A stretch of 64,000 nucleotides of DNA from an uncultured Thermoplasmatales archaeon (GTDB lineage Archaea; Thermoplasmatota; E2; DHVEG-1). The stretch covers positions 133,378 to 197,377 of the forward strand of contig CAYZTD010000002.1 of the NCBI GenBank assembly GCA_964481275.1. The letters run 5' to 3'. Positions 4,343 through 61,085 of this stretch are shown in pieces (positions within the stretch are counted from its first letter, which is position 1; every line of letters starts with the position of its first letter). The notes under the pieces are model-generated. The model searched no databases. It was not told where the DNA came from and saw only the letters and a program-made list of their open reading frames with translations. The translations under genes and the position numbers were made by a program.

Positions 4343-5647
4343 ATGAATAGGAAAATAATTGGTATTTTAGTATGTATGCTTTTGATTGCAACTGCACTTC
4401 CTGTTTTTGGATTTGCAGAAAAAAATGAACAAAACAAATCATCTTTTACAATTGTTGAAAAGCAATCAGTTACAACATCAATGGGGGATGCCGTAGATCA
4501 ACAACAAACAACATATACTGGATCTGAAAGAATCCAGCTTTTATCTGGAGGACTTGCTCAATCTTTTCAACCTGCTACTTCACCATTAACAAAAGTAGCA
4601 ATTTTGTTGACAAAAACTTCGGGGGTTCCAGAATATGCAAATTATTATATTGAAATTAGACCAGATATTAACAGTCCGACATATTATAGGAAAATCAGCA
4701 TTCCTGGATCTGAATTTACATCTTATACCTTATTCTGGCTTATTTATGATATCTCTGATTTATCTGTTGTACCTGGAAATGACTATTGGATTGTTTGTTA
4801 TGCCGATACTCCAACAATATATTCAACGCAAGTTAAATGGTGTTATGGAAGCCCTGGTTATGATCCTTATCCAAATGGAAATTCTATGATAAATGGAACT
4901 CTTGGATGGAGCCCATATGATCTATTAGGTGATTTTTGTTTTGTATCATTTAAACCAGGAGGATCTTCAAATAATCCACCCAATACACCTACTACTCCAT
5001 TTGGACCAACAATTGGGACTGTCGGAGTATCCTATACATATACTACCATAGCAACGGATCCTGATGGAGATGATATAAAATACGGATGGGATTGGAATGG
5101 TGATAGCATAATAGATGAATATAGTAGCTTTTATTCCTCTGGGGAGACATGTACAATGACACATACCTGGGAAAGTCCTGGGATTTATAATGTAAAAGTA
5201 AAAGCAAAGGATGAACATAATGCTTTTAGTGGTTTTTCACCTGCTCTGACAGTTACCATATCTGTTGCAAATAATCCACCGAATAAACCAAGTACACCTT
5301 CTGGTCCTACATCAGGAAAAGCTGGTATTTCTTATACATATTCAACATCAGCAATTGATTCTGAGGGTGATCAAGTTTATTATCAATGGGATTGGGGCGA
5401 CGAAGTAAGTACTTGGGATGGCCCATATAACTCGGGAGATGCAGCTGTAGCTTCACATATATGGAATAATGATGGAACATTTCCAGTTAAAGTAAAAGCT
5501 AAAGATGCAAGTGATGCTGAAAGTGTATGGTCTGATCCATTGTCTGTAAGTATGCCAAAAAATAAAGGTATTAAAAATACATTTTTTGATTTCTTACAGC
5601 AATACCCAGGGATATTTGAATTTATTCAACGTATTCTAAAATTTTAA
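4343..5647 (+). CDS. secreted protein with two PKD domains and a conserved C-terminal amphipathic tail
   Basis: N-terminal signal peptide (MNRKIIGILVCMLLIATALPVFGFA). Two repeats (NNPPN[TK]P..P.GPT.G..G.SYTY.T.A.D.[DE]GD...Y.WDW...KVKAKD) match PKD-type domains. The tail KNKGIKNTFFDFLQQYPGIFEFIQRILKF is shared with other secreted proteins in the window. Confidence 0.8.
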   Translation: MNRKIIGILVCMLLIATALPVFGFAEKNEQNKSSFTIVEKQSVTTSMGDAVDQQQTTYTGSERIQLLSGGLAQSFQPATSPLTKVAILLTKTSGVPEYANYYIEIRPDINSPTYYRKISIPGSEFTSYTLFWLIYDISDLSVVPGNDYWIVCYADTPTIYSTQVKWCYGSPGYDPYPNGNSMINGTLGWSPYDLLGDFCFVSFKPGGSSNNPPNTPTTPFGPTIGTVGVSYTYTTIATDPDGDDIKYGWDWNGDSIIDEYSSFYSSGETCTMTHTWESPGIYNVKVKAKDEHNAFSGFSPALTVTISVANNPPNKPSTPSGPTSGKAGISYTYSTSAIDSEGDQVYYQWDWGDEVSTWDGPYNSGDAAVASHIWNNDGTFPVKVKAKDASDAESVWSDPLSVSMPKNKGIKNTFFDFLQQYPGIFEFIQRILKF

Positions 5648-59115: not shown

Positions 59116-59343
59116 TTATTTTTTTGATTTTTTATATCTTGATTTATAAAGTGAGAATGTTGCAATAGGAAATACAATTATAAAAAAGACTATCCAGACC
59201 CAAATTGATATCTCTTCTTCATAGTAACCTAATAGTAAAATTATTGGAACTTCAATTAAGAGAGTTATTGCAAGTCCCCAAACTATCGAACCTATTAGTG
59301 ATGTATCTTTTCCTTTCCAAATTAAACCCCATGCATAAGACAT
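59116..59343 (-). CDS. small 2-TM membrane protein
   Basis: 75-aa hydrophobic ORF just upstream of the kinase gene on the same strand. Confidence 0.4.
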   Translation of the reverse strand: MSYAWGLIWKGKDTSLIGSIVWGLAITLLIEVPIILLLGYYEEEISIWVWIVFFIIVFPIATFSLYKSRYKKSKK

Positions 59344-59406
59344 AATATCATCTTTATAAACATATATTTTGTTTTAATGTTTTTGAAATTACAAAAATTG
59401 TTTTAG

Positions 59407-59508
59407 TGCAGGGGGAGCGATTCGAACGCTCGAAGACCTACGTCACAGGGTATCTTAATGCTTAGGCATTCCTAAGCCCTGCCCCTTTGACCGCTCGGGT
59501 ACCCCTGC
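59407..59508 (-). tRNA. tRNA-Leu (anticodon UAG) with a 19-nt intron at the canonical 37/38 position
   Basis: Reverse-complement reading shows acceptor GCAGGGG/CCCCUGC with discriminator A, a D arm, anticodon stem CAGGG/CCCUG, loop CU-UAG-G, a long variable arm (GAC-GUAG-GUC) and T arm GAGCG-UUCGAAU-CGCUC. The intron AAUGCCUAAGCAUUAAGAU pairs with the anticodon region in a BHB-like helix. Confidence 0.8.
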
Positions 59509-59577
59509 AGAATAGAAACTTCTAATAGAAAAGATACTCAAAAATGTTTTTACGATTTTTTTTGAGAATAAAGATTA

Positions 59578-59781
59578 TCATTTTTCTTTTACTAGTAGTT
59601 TTTTTTCACCATATTTGCCATAACAGTTATAACAAAATTTTCTTGCGATAAGTGAATGAAGATGTTCTTCAACACCCTCTTCTAAATGATATGTTTCTCC
59701 TTTTAAGATTTGTTGATTACAATTTGTGCAAACCTTTGAGCTATTTGCAACTTTCTTAATGAGATGAGTTTGAATATTCAT
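59578..59781 (-). CDS. small zinc-ribbon protein
   Basis: 67 aa with a CxxC...CxxC arrangement (CTNCNQQ...CYNCYG). Confidence 0.4.
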   Translation of the reverse strand: MNIQTHLIKKVANSSKVCTNCNQQILKGETYHLEEGVEEHLHSLIARKFCYNCYGKYGEKKLLVKEK

Positions 59782-59908
59782 AAATCAAAACCCTCTATAT
59801 CAATAAAATATATGGTTAATAAACATTTTTCTTAAAAATCTAAGAATACTTTCGGTTTACTATATACTAATTTATTATATCATCTCATAGTTTTTATATT
59901 AATTCCTT

Positions 59909-60571
59909 ATGAATGCGAAAAAAATAGATTTAGATGCTATAGATATAAAAGAAAAAGCATATCTAATTGGTATCATAGTTGGAGATGGGTATTTATATCA
60001 TGATAATTGGAGGCATTACAAGGTTAATATTTACTTAAATCCAAATAAAGATAAAGACGTAGCTAATTTTGTTCTATTTTTACTAAAGAAAGTAGGTCTT
60101 AATCCATATGAAATGCATCATCATGGATGTTTAGTTATAAGATTTAATTCAAAATCATTTTTTAATTTTATTGAAAAAGAATTAAAAAGAATTAAAAACA
60201 TCGATATTAAAAATAAGGATTTTATGATTGGTTTTATATCAGGATTTATAGATTCTGATGGCTATGTATCTTATGGAGATATTGTTATTTCAAATAAAAA
60301 AAAAGAATTGATAGAAAAGACAAATAATTTTTGTAAAAATTTGAAAATATATTCTAAAATTTGGAGTCAACATAATCTATTCCGTGGTAAAATTTTTGAT
60401 ATATGGAGATTGAGAATAGGTACTAGTTTTAAGTATGAGGAACATTATTCCCAAAAATTAAATCGGATATATGGCGGGGCGCTGCCCATCATAGCGAGTA
60501 TTAATTCAGAAATGGATGATACCTATAAGGGTGGGGTAGCCAGGAAATCCCGACGGGCCCATAACCCGTAG
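59909..60571 (+). CDS. LAGLIDADG-family homing endonuclease (double-motif); 3' end reads into the tRNA-Met 5' exon
   Basis: Two LAGLIDADG-type motifs are present (LIGIIVGDGYL and IGFISGFIDSDGYV). The true stop is uncertain because the reading frame continues through the tRNA gene. Confidence 0.7.
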   Translation: MNAKKIDLDAIDIKEKAYLIGIIVGDGYLYHDNWRHYKVNIYLNPNKDKDVANFVLFLLKKVGLNPYEMHHHGCLVIRFNSKSFFNFIEKELKRIKNIDIKNKDFMIGFISGFIDSDGYVSYGDIVISNKKKELIEKTNNFCKNLKIYSKIWSQHNLFRGKIFDIWRLRIGTSFKYEEHYSQKLNRIYGGALPIIASINSEMDDTYKGGVARKSRRAHNP

Positions 60572-60599
60572 ATCAGTGGTTCAAATCCACTCCCCGCTA
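60473..60599 (+). tRNA. initiator-type tRNA-Met (anticodon CAU) interrupted by a ~52-nt non-canonical intron between the acceptor stem and D arm
   Basis: The contiguous 3' part has D arm GGGG-UAGCCAGGAAA-UCCC, anticodon arm ACGGG-CCCAUAA-CCCGU with three G-C pairs, T arm AGUGG-UUCAAAU-CCACU and 3' acceptor CCCCGCU-A. The only complementary 5' acceptor strand (GGCG/GGG) lies about 52 nt upstream at 60473. Confidence 0.6.
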
Positions 60600-60740
60600 T
60601 CTTTTTTGATTAATTAAAAACCAAATATTTTTAATTGATATTTTGATTTTTATATTGCTTTATTTGGGAGGTAGACTTGTATTTATGGTAAAATCCGTAT
60701 TAATTCTTCAAAATCGCCTCTAAATTTATTAAAAGATAGA

Positions 60741-61085
60741 TTGAAAAAGAATAACATTGAAAAAAAACAAGAAGAAAGATCAAAGAATATAGAAAAAATT
60801 AATGAACAGATTAAGAAAATGAATGATTTATTTGATGACGAAGAGAATGTATCTATAAAATATGAACCAAGTCCTATGCAAAATAGGTTATTGAAAATGA
60901 TTTATCTTGATGATGTAGATGCAGATCATGTTAAAAAGAATCTTAAAATTTCTAATAATGAATTAGAAAATCTTGTAAATCAATTAGTAGAAGTTGGTTT
61001 AGTTGAATATACATCAGATAATGAAGTGGAATTAACAAATGAAGGTATTTATTATATCGTCAATAGAAATCTAGATTTATTTTAG
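60741..61085 (+). CDS. small hypothetical protein, possible winged-helix fold
   Basis: 114 aa. The C-terminal LENLVNQLVEVGLVEYTSDNEVELTNEG resembles a wHTH recognition helix and wing. Confidence 0.4.
   Translation: MKKNNIEKKQEERSKNIEKINEQIKKMNDLFDDEENVSIKYEPSPMQNRLLKMIYLDDVDADHVKKNLKISNNELENLVNQLVEVGLVEYTSDNEVELTNEGIYYIVNRNLDLF

What the first reader, a model, noticed from the sequence alone, without database searches (positions are those of the whole stretch)
59909..60599. Initiator tRNA-Met apparently split by a non-canonical intron near the acceptor/D-arm junction, with a LAGLIDADG homing-endonuclease ORF running into its 5' exon
From 60531 to 60599 the sequence folds as a textbook initiator tRNA-Met body: D arm GGGG/UCCC, anticodon stem with three consecutive G-C pairs, CAU anticodon, T arm AGUGG-UUCAAAU-CCACU, acceptor 3' strand CCCCGCU plus discriminator A. 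The 7-nt 5' acceptor strand is missing where it should be, where the sequence reads AUAAGGG. A matching GGCGGGG is found 52 nt upstream (60473..60479). This implies an intron of about 52 nt inserted between nucleotides 4-7 of the tRNA, a non-canonical position for archaeal BHB introns. Immediately upstream, and reading through the 5' exon, is a 220-aa ORF with two LAGLIDADG motifs (LIGIIVGDGYL, IGFISGFIDSDGYV). This is a homing endonuclease, a class usually found inside archaeal rRNA introns or inteins rather than beside a tRNA gene. The arrangement suggests intron and homing-endonuclease invasion of the tRNA-Met locus.
Basis: partly seen in the sequence, partly recalled or inferred. Interest (0 to 1): 0.65.

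Follow-up and report, generated by a model that had tools for sequence, protein, structure and literature searches.

The report
Split initiator tRNA beside homing endonuclease
The archaeal initiator tRNA gene here is interrupted four bases from its start by a 32-base protein-spliced intron and sits directly behind a selfish DNA-cutting enzyme gene, a pairing that recurs in many archaeal lineages and may show how such odd tRNA introns arise and spread.

Summary
The tRNA-iMet body (60529-60599) and the 220-aa LAGLIDADG ORF (59909-60571) are real. The true 5' exon is AGCG at 60493-60496. The intron is 32 nt (60497-60528), between tRNA positions 4 and 5, and lies in a full helix-bulge-helix-bulge-helix (BHB) motif. 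Across 51 distinct relatives, 92.9% of cells pair against 34-47% in slid controls, and 10 pairs show compensatory changes. Splicing gives a perfect 75-nt cloverleaf with A1-U72.

The endonuclease is I-DmoI-like and free-standing. Every homolog locus examined, in at least five archaeal phylum-level groups, abuts a tRNA-iMet gene, nearly always with an intron in its first ~18 nt. In an endonuclease-blind sample of this lineage, two thirds of iMet genes carry the 4/5 intron. Most retain only the 3' ~25 codons of the endonuclease gene, which coincide with a TATA-like box for the tRNA.

Best reading: a selfish endonuclease cassette that homes to the iMet locus, linked to an intron splitting its likely target. 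That last link is inferred, not shown.

The parts
59909..60478 (+). Free-standing LAGLIDADG homing endonuclease, conserved core (residues 1-190); catalytic D26 and D117 present
   Evidence: Pfam LAGLIDADG_3 5e-14. 42 homologs. D26 and the D/E at 117 are kept in all 17 aligned sequences. I-DmoI is the best solved relative by sequence (8e-6) and by fold (E 3.6e-11, TM 0.70). AF2 pLDDT is about 94 over residues 1-190.
60479..60571 (+). Read-through tail of the ORF across the leader, 5' exon, intron and 3' exon; stop is the TAA in the anticodon loop. Probably not a functional part of the protein
   Evidence: The tail differs or is absent in homologs. L003 stops at the TAG of AT-AG-CG. pLDDT is below 50 for residues 191-220.
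60428..60435 (+). TATA-like box TTTAAGTA, identical with codons F174-K175-Y176 of the endonuclease; inferred promoter of the tRNA (start of transcription predicted near 60455-60460)
   Evidence: The block GTACTAGnTTTAAGTATGAGAAACATTATTCCC is conserved at DNA level in relatives that have lost the rest of the endonuclease gene. The FKY codons read TTTAAATA or TTTAAGTA at -45 to -75 from A1 in most loci of all phyla. Promoter function is inferred, not shown.
60473..60479 (+).
   Evidence: NGCGG[GT]G with at least 6/7 complementarity to C66-U72 occurs in 44/46 intron-bearing loci and 1/19 intronless loci. The minimum-energy fold pairs it with CCCCGCU. Its role is unexplained.
60481..60490 (+). Outer BHB helix, leader strand GCTGCCCATC, pairing with tRNA nt 6-16 (60530-60540)
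   Evidence: Helix 1: 91.4% of cells paired, 4 pairs with changes on both sides. Predicted in the minimum-energy folds of most relatives.
60491..60494 (+). Central 4-bp BHB helix, 5' strand ATAG (leader -2, -1 plus tRNA A1, G2)
   Evidence: Pairs with CTAT at 60523-60526. 98% of cells paired across 51 sequences. GCAG/CTGC in L018 is compensatory at two pairs.
60493..60496 (+). 5' exon AGCG (tRNA positions 1-4); 5' splice site after 60496, in bulge C-G|A
   Evidence: Invariant A13-G14-C15-G16-A17 in alignment A2. Splicing restores AGCGGGG with A1-U72.
60497..60528 (+). 32-nt BHB intron at tRNA position 4/5. Contains inner hairpin 60498-60522, central-helix strand CTAT 60523-60526 and bulge A-A|G 60527-60529
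   Evidence: All four inner-helix closing pairs covary (GTAT/ATAC, GCAA/TTGC, ACAT/ATGT, GAAG/CTTC...). Intron lengths in relatives are 14-59 nt, with the mode at 32.
60529..60599 (+). 3' exon: tRNA-iMet positions 5-73 (CAU anticodon, three G-C pairs closing the anticodon stem, discriminator A)
   Evidence: ARAGORN and Rfam calls. The spliced 75-nt product folds as a perfect cloverleaf.

Best explanation
The locus holds two linked things.

(1) A functional initiator tRNA gene whose first four bases (AGCG, 60493-60496) are separated from the rest (60529-60599) by a 32-nt intron. In the precursor, a roughly 35-nt leader pairs with tRNA nt 6-16. Leader -2/-1 plus A1-G2 (ATAG) pair with the intron's CTAT. 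The intron interior forms a hairpin. Together these make a strict helix-bulge-helix-bulge-helix motif, with the two splice sites in the 3-nt bulges CG|A and AA|G. The archaeal splicing endonuclease should cut there and the RNA ligase should join AGCG to GGG. RNase P should then remove the leader, giving a 75-nt tRNA with A1-U72.

(2) Immediately upstream sits a free-standing I-DmoI-like LAGLIDADG homing endonuclease gene. Its last ~25 codons double as the tRNA's promoter and leader (the TATA-like box is codons F-K-Y).

I read the endonuclease as a selfish element specialised on the iMet locus. It moves by cutting endonuclease-free iMet alleles and being copied in by repair, together with its built-in promoter, leader, 4-nt exon and intron. 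The intron splits the conserved 5' end of the tRNA gene, which I infer to be the enzyme's recognition site, and so protects carrier genomes. This would be the BHB-intron counterpart of 'collaborative homing'.

Shown: the intron, its BHB and covariation; the protein family and fold; the universal adjacency to iMet; and the presence/remnant/absence polymorphism. Inferred: splicing in vivo, the internal promoter, the target site, and the protective role of the intron.
For: Intron and BHB.
- The conserved junction is seen in the window and 60+ relatives.
- Covariation count: 92.9% of cells paired against 34-47% when partners are slid; 10 pairs changed on both sides; 0/500 shuffles reach the observed values.
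- The spliced product is a perfect cloverleaf.
- The A5:U68 compensatory change spans the splice junction.

Endonuclease.
- Pfam match. I-DmoI is the nearest by sequence and fold. Catalytic acidic residues are kept.

Site specificity.
- All 32 valid genome loci and L001-L010 have tRNA-iMet within about 0-100 nt of the ORF end (directly abutting in most; ~100 nt in L030), in Thermoplasmatales-labelled, Nanoarchaeota/Woesearchaeota, Aenigmatarchaeota, Altiarchaeota and Hadarchaeota MAGs.
- In two loci the tRNA is inverted yet still abuts the ORF.

Selfish-element life cycle. In 78 classifiable iMet loci found with a tRNA-only probe:
- 52 carry the 4/5 intron and 26 do not.
- Among intron-bearing loci with at least 750 nt upstream there are 3 full endonuclease genes, 22 3'-end remnants and 10 with nothing.
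- Among intronless loci there are 0 full, 4 remnants and 15 with nothing and a different promoter-like region.
- Fisher p = 5.6e-4, not corrected for relatedness.

Link to introns.
- 30 of 32 endonuclease-adjacent iMet genes carry an intron within tRNA nt 4-18.
- Every full-length endonuclease in the window's lineage sits beside the 4/5 intron.
Against: - There are no RNA data, so splicing is inferred from conservation only.
- No cleavage data exist. The target site is a guess.
- L017 and L041 have the endonuclease beside an iMet gene with no 5'-region intron. Some intronless loci keep endonuclease remnants. So the intron is not strictly required alongside the gene.
- DPANN tRNAs may be intron-rich in general.
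- TATA-like words are common in AT-rich DNA.
- The association statistics ignore shared ancestry.
- A second, intact iMet gene elsewhere in this genome cannot be excluded from a 64-kb window. None is found in it.
Confidence: 0.7

Rival explanations
1. One reading: the 5' exon is GGCGGGG at 60473-60479 and a 52-nt intron (60480-60531) is removed from between positions 7 and 8 (or anywhere in 4-7).
For: The word exists. RGCGGGG occurs 4 times in the window against 0.72 expected. It is conserved in intron-bearing relatives, and the minimum-energy fold pairs it with the 3' acceptor strand. ARAGORN accepts the resulting 75-mer with a G+U first pair.
Against: By hand inspection of the four possible junctions (after tRNA positions 4, 5, 6 and 7, read off the sequence), none gives a full BHB. 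It gives G1 rather than A1 opposite U72. In many relatives the word is GGCGGTG, TGCGGGG or CGCGGGG, which mispairs. In the A5:U68 variants only AGCG+AGG restores the stem. The BHB that does covary sits 20 nt downstream.
Confidence: 0.04
2. A decayed tRNA pseudogene left beside an endonuclease insertion. The 'intron' is junk and the cell uses another iMet gene.
For: Standard tRNA finders give only a distorted 70-nt call. Only 64 kb of the genome is visible.
Against: The tRNA body, junctions and BHB are conserved with compensatory changes across 50+ divergent sequences and several phyla. Acceptor-stem covariation spans the splice site. The locus is syntenic and is the only iMet seen in every relative's contig.
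Confidence: 0.04
3. A classical mobile archaeal intron: the endonuclease ORF lies inside a long BHB intron whose 5' exon is upstream of 59909.
For: This is the usual home of I-DmoI-type enzymes, in rRNA introns (established knowledge; I-DmoI and I-Tsp061I are among the fold matches).
Against: There is no AGCG or BHB half-site in 59782-59908. A complete BHB with its own 5' exon lies downstream of the ORF. Relatives that lack the ORF keep the same short intron.
Confidence: 0.02
4. The LAGLIDADG protein is domesticated: a host DNA-binding factor (WhiA-like) serving iMet expression. It is inherited vertically, and the intron is unrelated to it.
For: Adjacency is conserved in distant phyla. The ORF overlaps the tRNA's promoter and leader. 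WhiA appears among distant fold matches, and one source labels a homolog WhiA.
Against: Most close relatives have deleted the gene, keeping only its last ~25 codons. Both catalytic acidic residues are retained. The distribution is sporadic, with 34 of 185,579 species hit by the pattern scan, which is a lower bound. The best fold matches are active endonucleases.
Confidence: 0.1
5. The endonuclease does home to the iMet locus, but the intron is incidental. It was present or gained independently and gives no protection.
For: L017 and L041 lack 5' introns. Intronless loci with remnants exist. The intron persists widely without the endonuclease.
Against: Endonuclease evidence is enriched beside the intron (odds ratio 9.4, p = 5.6e-4). 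30 of 32 endonuclease-adjacent genes have an intron in nt 4-18 at five or more different positions. The 4/5 junction sequence ATAG-CG|A...CTAT-AA|G is shared among phyla whose tRNA bodies differ, as expected if it travels with the cassette.
Confidence: 0.2

Closest known systems
Non-canonical BHB introns of archaeal tRNAs (e.g. position 3/4 in Thermoproteales; Sugahara et al. 2008 as cited in PMC4090602)
   Same: A protein-spliced intron defined only by a bulge-helix-bulge at the exon-intron junctions, at a place other than 37/38. It lies in the acceptor stem close to the 5' end.
   Different: Position 4/5 is not in the list of positions given in PMC4090602. The host is the initiator tRNA of a Thermoplasmatales-labelled sediment lineage and several DPANN groups, not Crenarchaeota. 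The outer helix is built from the 5' leader, not from the mature tRNA. It is physically linked to an endonuclease gene.
I-DmoI and other LAGLIDADG endonucleases encoded in archaeal rRNA BHB introns
   Same: A monomeric two-motif LAGLIDADG fold of about 190 aa with catalytic acidic residues in both motifs. An archaeal host and association with a BHB intron.
   Different: The ORF is outside the intron, upstream of a 4-nt exon. The host gene is a tRNA. Sequence identity to I-DmoI is about 23%. Activity and target are untested.
[quoted passage not shown]
   Same: The endonuclease gene lies beside, not inside, an ORF-less intron in a highly conserved gene. The proposed logic is the same: the intron interrupts the enzyme's target and both move together.
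   Different: Here the intron is a protein-spliced BHB intron, not a ribozyme. The hosts are cellular archaea, not phages (no viral hits). The cassette also appears to carry a replacement promoter and leader. That the target equals the intron insertion site is not demonstrated here.
tRNA gene disruption as protection against mobile elements (Randau and Soll 2008, as cited in PMC4090602 and PMC4033280)
   Same: The idea that introns or splits in tRNA genes destroy sites used by invading DNA.
   Different: That proposal concerned integrase-mediated virus and plasmid integration at tRNA 3' parts. Here the candidate aggressor is a homing endonuclease at the 5' part, and it sits next to the disrupted gene.

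Membership tests
Archaeal BHB (splicing-endonuclease) tRNA intron | Two 3-nt bulges on opposite strands separated by a 4-bp helix, each bulge 3' of its central-helix strand, with the splice sites in the bulges | tested here: met
   ATAG/CTAT central helix, bulges CG|A and AA|G. Present in all 51 distinct relatives, with 98% of central-helix cells paired.
Archaeal BHB (splicing-endonuclease) tRNA intron | Flanking helices (strict hBHBh' form) | tested here: met
   Outer helix of leader 60481-90 with nt 6-16 (91.4% paired). Inner hairpin (91.7% paired, all 4 closing pairs covary). Both are predicted in the minimum-energy folds of the window and most relatives.
Archaeal BHB (splicing-endonuclease) tRNA intron | Removal restores a functional tRNA | tested here: met
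   The in-silico spliced 75-mer is a perfect cloverleaf with a 7-bp acceptor stem and A1-U72. A5:U68 covaries across the junction.
Archaeal BHB (splicing-endonuclease) tRNA intron | Cleavage by EndA and ligation in vivo or in vitro | not testable with these tools
   No RNA data or enzyme assay available.
Archaeal initiator tRNA | CAU anticodon, three consecutive G-C pairs closing the anticodon stem, A1:U72 (established knowledge of archaeal initiators) | tested here: met
   ACGGG-CCCAUAA-CCCGU stem-loop. A1-U72 appears only after splicing at 4/5.
LAGLIDADG homing endonuclease, monomeric two-domain (I-DmoI type) | Two LAGLIDADG motifs, each ending in a catalytic acidic residue | tested here: met
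   LIGIIVGDG (D26) and SGFIDSDG (D117). D26 is invariant and position 117 is D or E in 17 homologs.
LAGLIDADG homing endonuclease, monomeric two-domain (I-DmoI type) | Tandem alpha-beta-beta-alpha-beta-beta-alpha fold | tested here: met
   AF2 model with pLDDT about 94 over residues 1-190 and the expected order of elements. Foldseek top 34 hits are all I-DmoI, E 3.6e-11, TM 0.70.
LAGLIDADG homing endonuclease, monomeric two-domain (I-DmoI type) | Site-specific double-strand cleavage of an allele lacking the element | not testable with these tools
   Only indirect evidence: strict adjacency to iMet and presence/remnant/absence polymorphism.
Collaborative homing pair (free-standing endonuclease + ORF-less intron) | Endonuclease gene outside but adjacent to an ORF-less intron in the same conserved gene | tested here: met
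   The conserved protein core ends 15 nt before A1. The intron is 32 nt with no ORF.
Collaborative homing pair (free-standing endonuclease + ORF-less intron) | The endonuclease target coincides with the intron insertion site, so the intron confers immunity | not testable with these tools
   Suggestive only: 30 of 32 adjacent iMet genes have an intron within nt 4-18. The exceptions are L017 and L041.
Group I / group II self-splicing intron | Ribozyme core recognisable by covariance models | tested here: not met
   An Rfam scan of 59300-61000 at E<=1 returns only tRNA and a weak tmRNA-model hit that is really tRNA-Leu. 32 nt is far too short.
Integrase att-site duplication of a tRNA 3' part | A second copy of the tRNA segment bounding an integrated element with an integrase | tested here: not met
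   No second copy of the 3' 22 nt (up to 3 mismatches) or of the anticodon arm in the window. Neighbours are housekeeping-type genes in conserved synteny.

The most novel reading that the evidence does not exclude
A composite selfish cassette in archaea. A free-standing LAGLIDADG endonuclease gene homes to the initiator-tRNA gene and carries three things in its own 3' end: a replacement TATA box (its F-K-Y codons), a leader, and a 4-nt exon with a BHB mini-intron. The mini-intron splits the enzyme's recognition site.

On this reading, endonuclease attack and co-conversion are a mechanism by which non-canonical BHB introns are created, kept and spread horizontally between archaeal phyla. The scatter of intron positions (4/5, 7/8, 10/11, 14/15) in endonuclease-adjacent iMet genes would be the trace of an arms race over one target site.
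Probability: 0.35. Interest if true: 0.85.

Novelty: new variant of a known kind. Interest (0 to 1): 0.68.

Why it matters
How archaeal tRNA introns are gained and moved is an open question. [quoted passage not shown] The idea that tRNA disruption protects against mobile DNA has stayed a hypothesis.

This locus puts a candidate aggressor (a homing endonuclease) and a candidate defence (an intron four bases into the gene) side by side. Natural alleles represent the main states: empty, endonuclease plus intron, intron with an endonuclease remnant, and intronless with a remnant. That makes the question testable with one protein, two DNA substrates and one RNA substrate.

There is also a practical point. 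Standard tRNA finders mis-annotate this essential gene as a 70-nt tRNA lacking a proper D arm, or miss it. Genomes of a widespread sediment lineage and of DPANN archaea will therefore appear to lack a normal initiator tRNA.

Finally, the enzyme family would be a new set of natural LAGLIDADG scaffolds with a predictable, highly conserved target.

Tried and rejected
1. I inspected by hand the junctions after tRNA positions 4, 5, 6 and 7 for a BHB. None is formed, and the word is variable in relatives. Rejected as an exon and kept as a leader element.
2. A 5' exon upstream of the ORF, with the endonuclease inside a long intron. There is no AGCG or half-BHB in 59782-59908.
3. A split or trans-spliced tRNA with its 5' half elsewhere. 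The only other AGCGGGG (32024) lies in ordinary AT-rich sequence with no flanking complementarity. This became unnecessary once the local exon was found.
4. A group I/II intron or another known RNA family: none found.
5. An integrase att duplication: no repeat of the tRNA and no integrase.
6. A viral origin: no relative of the endonuclease in 2.9 million viral contigs.
7. Looking up the window's own contig by exact protein failed twice, so the organism is named only through its relatives.
8. My first tblastn screen for the endonuclease in the metagenome loci looked like a failure, with 4 hits. A profile search on six-frame fragments showed the result was real: most loci hold only a 3' remnant.
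9. My splice-aware aligner mis-placed the 4-nt exon in L018, L022, L023 and L030 by picking distant AGCG words. These were corrected by the BHB parse.
10. Minimum-energy folding does not draw the A/U-rich central helix in most sequences. I treat that as a limit of the energy model for two bulges and rely on covariation instead.
11. A neighbour-joining tree of the endonucleases shows only a loose grouping by intron position and has no support values. It is not used as evidence.
12. Six literature searches found no description of a LAGLIDADG gene beside archaeal iMet. The library is incomplete, so this is not proof of absence.
Full report
**What is in the sequence**

ARAGORN and the Rfam tRNA model both call a tRNA-Met(CAU) at 60530-60599. 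The call is distorted: it uses GGTGGGG as the 5' acceptor strand and loses the D arm. Read by eye, the body is a textbook archaeal initiator from position 5 onward. It has the anticodon arm ACGGG-CCCAUAA-CCCGU, the T arm AGUGG-UUCAAAU-CCACU, and the 3' acceptor strand CCCCGCU plus A. The seven bases where the 5' acceptor strand should sit read ATAAGGG.

The ORF 59909-60571 (220 aa) matches Pfam LAGLIDADG_3 (5e-14). It reads through into the tRNA and stops at the TAA of the anticodon loop.

**Where the 5' exon really is**

I fetched loci encoding homologs of the ORF. The stretch between ORF and tRNA shows one conserved pattern..CCCATC-ATAG-CG|A-(hairpin)-CTAT-AA|G-GGTGGGGTAG..

In the window this gives:
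- 5' exon AGCG at 60493-60496;
- a 32-nt intron at 60497-60528;
- a 3' exon at 60529-60599.

The geometry is a strict hBHBh' motif.
- Leader 60481-60490 pairs with tRNA nt 6-16.
- ATAG (60491-94: leader -2, -1 plus A1, G2) pairs with CTAT (60523-26).
- The bulges are C-G|A and A-A|G.
- The intron interior (60498-60522) is a hairpin.

Each bulge lies 3' of its central-helix strand. The same holds for the canonical intron I found in the neighbouring tRNA-Leu on the minus strand, which served as an internal check of the geometry.

**Is the motif more than chance?**

I collected 51 distinct sequences of this junction from genome and metagenome loci, reduced them to fixed-length strings and counted pairs.
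- 92.9% of cells pair, against 34-47% when partners are slid by 1-3 columns.
- 10 of 18 pairs change on both sides.
- None of 500 shuffles reaches any observed measure.
- The inner-helix closing pairs run through GTAT/ATAC, GCAA/TTGC, ACAT/ATGT, GAAG/CTTC, GAAC/GTTC and ATAA/TTAT.
- The central helix is GCAG/CTGC in L018.

Splicing in silico gives a 75-nt cloverleaf with a 7-bp acceptor stem and A1-U72. In L015, L047, L059, L061 and L030 the first base of the 3' exon is A and position 68 is U. So the acceptor stem covaries across the splice junction.

Minimum-energy folding finds the outer and inner helices in the window and most relatives. It draws the A/U-rich central helix in only four of sixteen sequences. 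I take this as a limit of the energy model.

It is codons Y-G-G at the conserved end of the endonuclease (..RIYGG). As an exon it fails for four reasons.
- It gives G1.
- By my hand inspection of the junctions after positions 4-7, it has no BHB.
- It is GGCGGTG, TGCGGGG or CGCGGGG in many relatives.
- It cannot pair in the A5:U68 variants.

It is not meaningless, though. An NGCGG[GT]G word with at least 6/7 complementarity to the 3' acceptor strand sits in the leader of 44 of 46 intron-bearing loci. Most of these have lost the ORF, so there is no coding constraint on it there. Only 1 of 19 intronless loci has such a word. The minimum-energy fold of the window precursor pairs it with CCCCGCU.

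It may act as a stand-in acceptor strand in the precursor, or it may be a relic of the original 5' end. I leave this unexplained.

**The protein**

The conserved core is residues 1-190. D26 is invariant and position 117 is D or E in 17 homologs. I-DmoI, the endonuclease of an archaeal rRNA BHB intron, is the best solved relative by sequence (8e-6).

An AlphaFold model has pLDDT about 94 over residues 1-190 and below 50 over the read-through tail 191-220. Its top 34 Foldseek hits in the PDB are all I-DmoI (E 3.6e-11, TM 0.70). The tail is therefore an accident of reading into the tRNA. In L003 the stop codon is the TAG of AT-AG-CG.

**The association with iMet**

A scan of one genome per species with the homolog alignment returned 34 loci.
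- The closest are MAGs labelled uncultured Thermoplasmatales archaeon (up to 75% identity).
- The rest are Nanoarchaeota/Woesearchaeota, Aenigmatarchaeota, Altiarchaeota, Hadarchaeota and unclassified archaea (30-42% identity).
- Two of the 34 are partial matches without a real homolog.

A splice-aware alignment of an iMet consensus shows an iMet gene beside the ORF in all 32 others, and in L008-L010. In most it directly abuts the ORF end; in L030 the ORF ended about 100 nt upstream. In L020 and L029 the tRNA is inverted yet still abuts the ORF. Both ends of the gene read TAGCG(G/A)GG inward. No relative was found in viral contigs.

Thirty of the 32 tRNA genes carry an intron within nt 4-18, at 4/5, 7/8, 10/11, 14/15 and near 16-18. 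Most have a strict or relaxed BHB. L017 has only an anticodon-loop intron, and L041 has none.

**An endonuclease-blind sample**

I probed metagenome contigs with tRNA positions 11-44 only, so that any 5' state would be caught. Of the 78 that could be classified, 52 carry the 4/5 intron and 26 have a contiguous AGCGGGGTGG.

A profile search of six-frame fragments gave the following for loci with at least 750 nt upstream:

| 5' state | Full endonuclease gene | 3'-end remnant only (about the last 25 codons) | Nothing |
|---|---|---|---|
| Intron 4/5 | 3 (L063 interrupted, L100, L115) | 22 | 10 |
| Intronless | 0 | 4 | 15 |

The odds ratio for endonuclease evidence beside the intron is 9.4 (Fisher p = 5.6e-4, not corrected for shared ancestry).

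In the endonuclease-free loci, the 67-aa gene that lies upstream of the endonuclease in the window sits only about 150-200 nt from the tRNA. Many of the intronless loci without a remnant have a different promoter-like AAACTTTATAAG at about -55.

This is the pattern expected of a homing endonuclease gene that invades, becomes fixed, decays and is deleted.

**Why the 3' end survives**

In endonuclease-free loci the block GTACTAGnTTTAAGTATGAGAAACATTATTCCC is conserved at the DNA level, while everything upstream of it is unrelated. TTTAAGTA is codons F174-K175-Y176 (window 60428-60435). In most loci of all phyla these codons read TTTAAATA or TTTAAGTA, 45-75 nt before A1. This matches the archaeal TATA consensus TTTAWATA (established knowledge).

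A start about 26 nt downstream would give a leader of roughly 35 nt, containing the GGCGGGG word and the outer-helix strand. I infer that the endonuclease gene carries the tRNA's promoter in its last codons, so its insertion does not silence an essential gene. This is inference. TATA-like words are common in AT-rich DNA, and GC-richer members (L010, L018, L028) fit less well.

**Mechanism proposed**

Steps supported by sequence and comparative evidence:
- the intron, its BHB and the restored tRNA;
- the I-DmoI-type protein;
- its strict adjacency to iMet;
- its presence/remnant/absence polymorphism.

Steps inferred:
- The precursor starts inside the ORF's 3' end.
- The archaeal splicing endonuclease cuts the two bulges. 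A strict hBHBh' should be a substrate for any EndA type, since these enzymes recognise the motif regardless of context (established knowledge; compare PMC5829648).
- Ligase joins AGCG to GGG, and RNase P removes the leader.
- The LAGLIDADG enzyme cuts iMet alleles that lack it.
- Repair copies in the whole cassette.
- The intron protects carriers by splitting the conserved 5' end of the gene.

The last step is the BHB counterpart of collaborative homing, described for free-standing endonucleases and ORF-less group I introns in phages (PMC3984707, section 12).

Points against the protective role:
- L017 and L041 lack a 5'-region intron.
- Some intronless loci keep endonuclease remnants.
- I have no matched control for DPANN iMet genes without the endonuclease.

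**Comparison with what is known**

Non-canonical BHB introns are well known. The review PMC4090602 lists many positions and in Thermoproteales an extreme case. Position 4/5 is not in that list. [quoted passage not shown] PMC4033280 gives three as the maximum number of introns per archaeal tRNA.

Six full-text searches found no report of a LAGLIDADG gene beside archaeal iMet. The library is incomplete.

I therefore class the intron as a new member of a known kind. I class the endonuclease-plus-intron-plus-promoter arrangement as a new variant of a known kind.

**Verdict**

The finding is real and more interesting than first written, but its key detail (which bases form the 5' exon) was wrong.

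| Claim | Confidence |
|---|---|
| Intron model (AGCG exon, 32-nt BHB intron at 4/5) | ~0.9 |
| Endonuclease is a selfish, iMet-specific element | ~0.75 |
| Intron serves as its immunity or travels with it | ~0.35-0.4 |

Noticed in passing
window 59407-59508, minus strand (intron 59452-59470): A tRNA-Leu(UAG) with a canonical 37/38 BHB intron of 19 nt. ARAGORN missed it and it is below the Rfam gathering score; it surfaced only as a weak tmRNA-model hit. The same tRNA-Leu is intronless (84 nt) in relatives L001, L003 and L013, so this intron too is polymorphic.
   Followed up: partly
L008 3557-3906 (GCA_053537055.1, 491-kb contig); L020 2076-2223: iMet genes next to endonuclease homologs that appear cut by five introns (L008, the last 152 nt long and ending under the called start of an AMMECR1 gene) and by four introns (L020, gene inverted). 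Reviews give three as the known maximum per archaeal tRNA. A BHB check gave relaxed motifs for most of these introns and none for some.
   Followed up: partly
window 60473-60479 and the same place in L047-L124: The leader word NGCGG[GT]G, complementary to the 3' acceptor strand, is kept in 44/46 intron-bearing loci even where the ORF is gone, and in 1/19 intronless loci. It is either a possible surrogate acceptor strand in the precursor or a relic of the original 5' end.
   Followed up: partly
L020 and L029 (about 2060-2235 in each): The iMet gene is in the opposite orientation, with its 3' end abutting the end of the endonuclease ORF. Both ends of the gene read TAGCG(G/A)GG inward, which could explain insertion next to either end.
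   Followed up: no
L045 1008-1838: The AAA_17/18 kinase-like gene conserved upstream in this synteny looks truncated to 65 aa. Beside it lies a 186-aa ORF containing ..IIDEGAIGADG.., possibly another LAGLIDADG-like insertion.
   Followed up: no
L081, about 4700-4790 (oriented): A local duplication of the intron 3' part plus GGGTGGGGTAGC inside the iMet 5' region. It is either an assembly artefact or a real tandem duplication.
   Followed up: no
window 59578-59781, minus strand: A 67-aa protein with CxxC...CxxC spacing and no Pfam match. It is a constant neighbour of this iMet locus in all relatives of the lineage, with or without the endonuclease.
   Followed up: no
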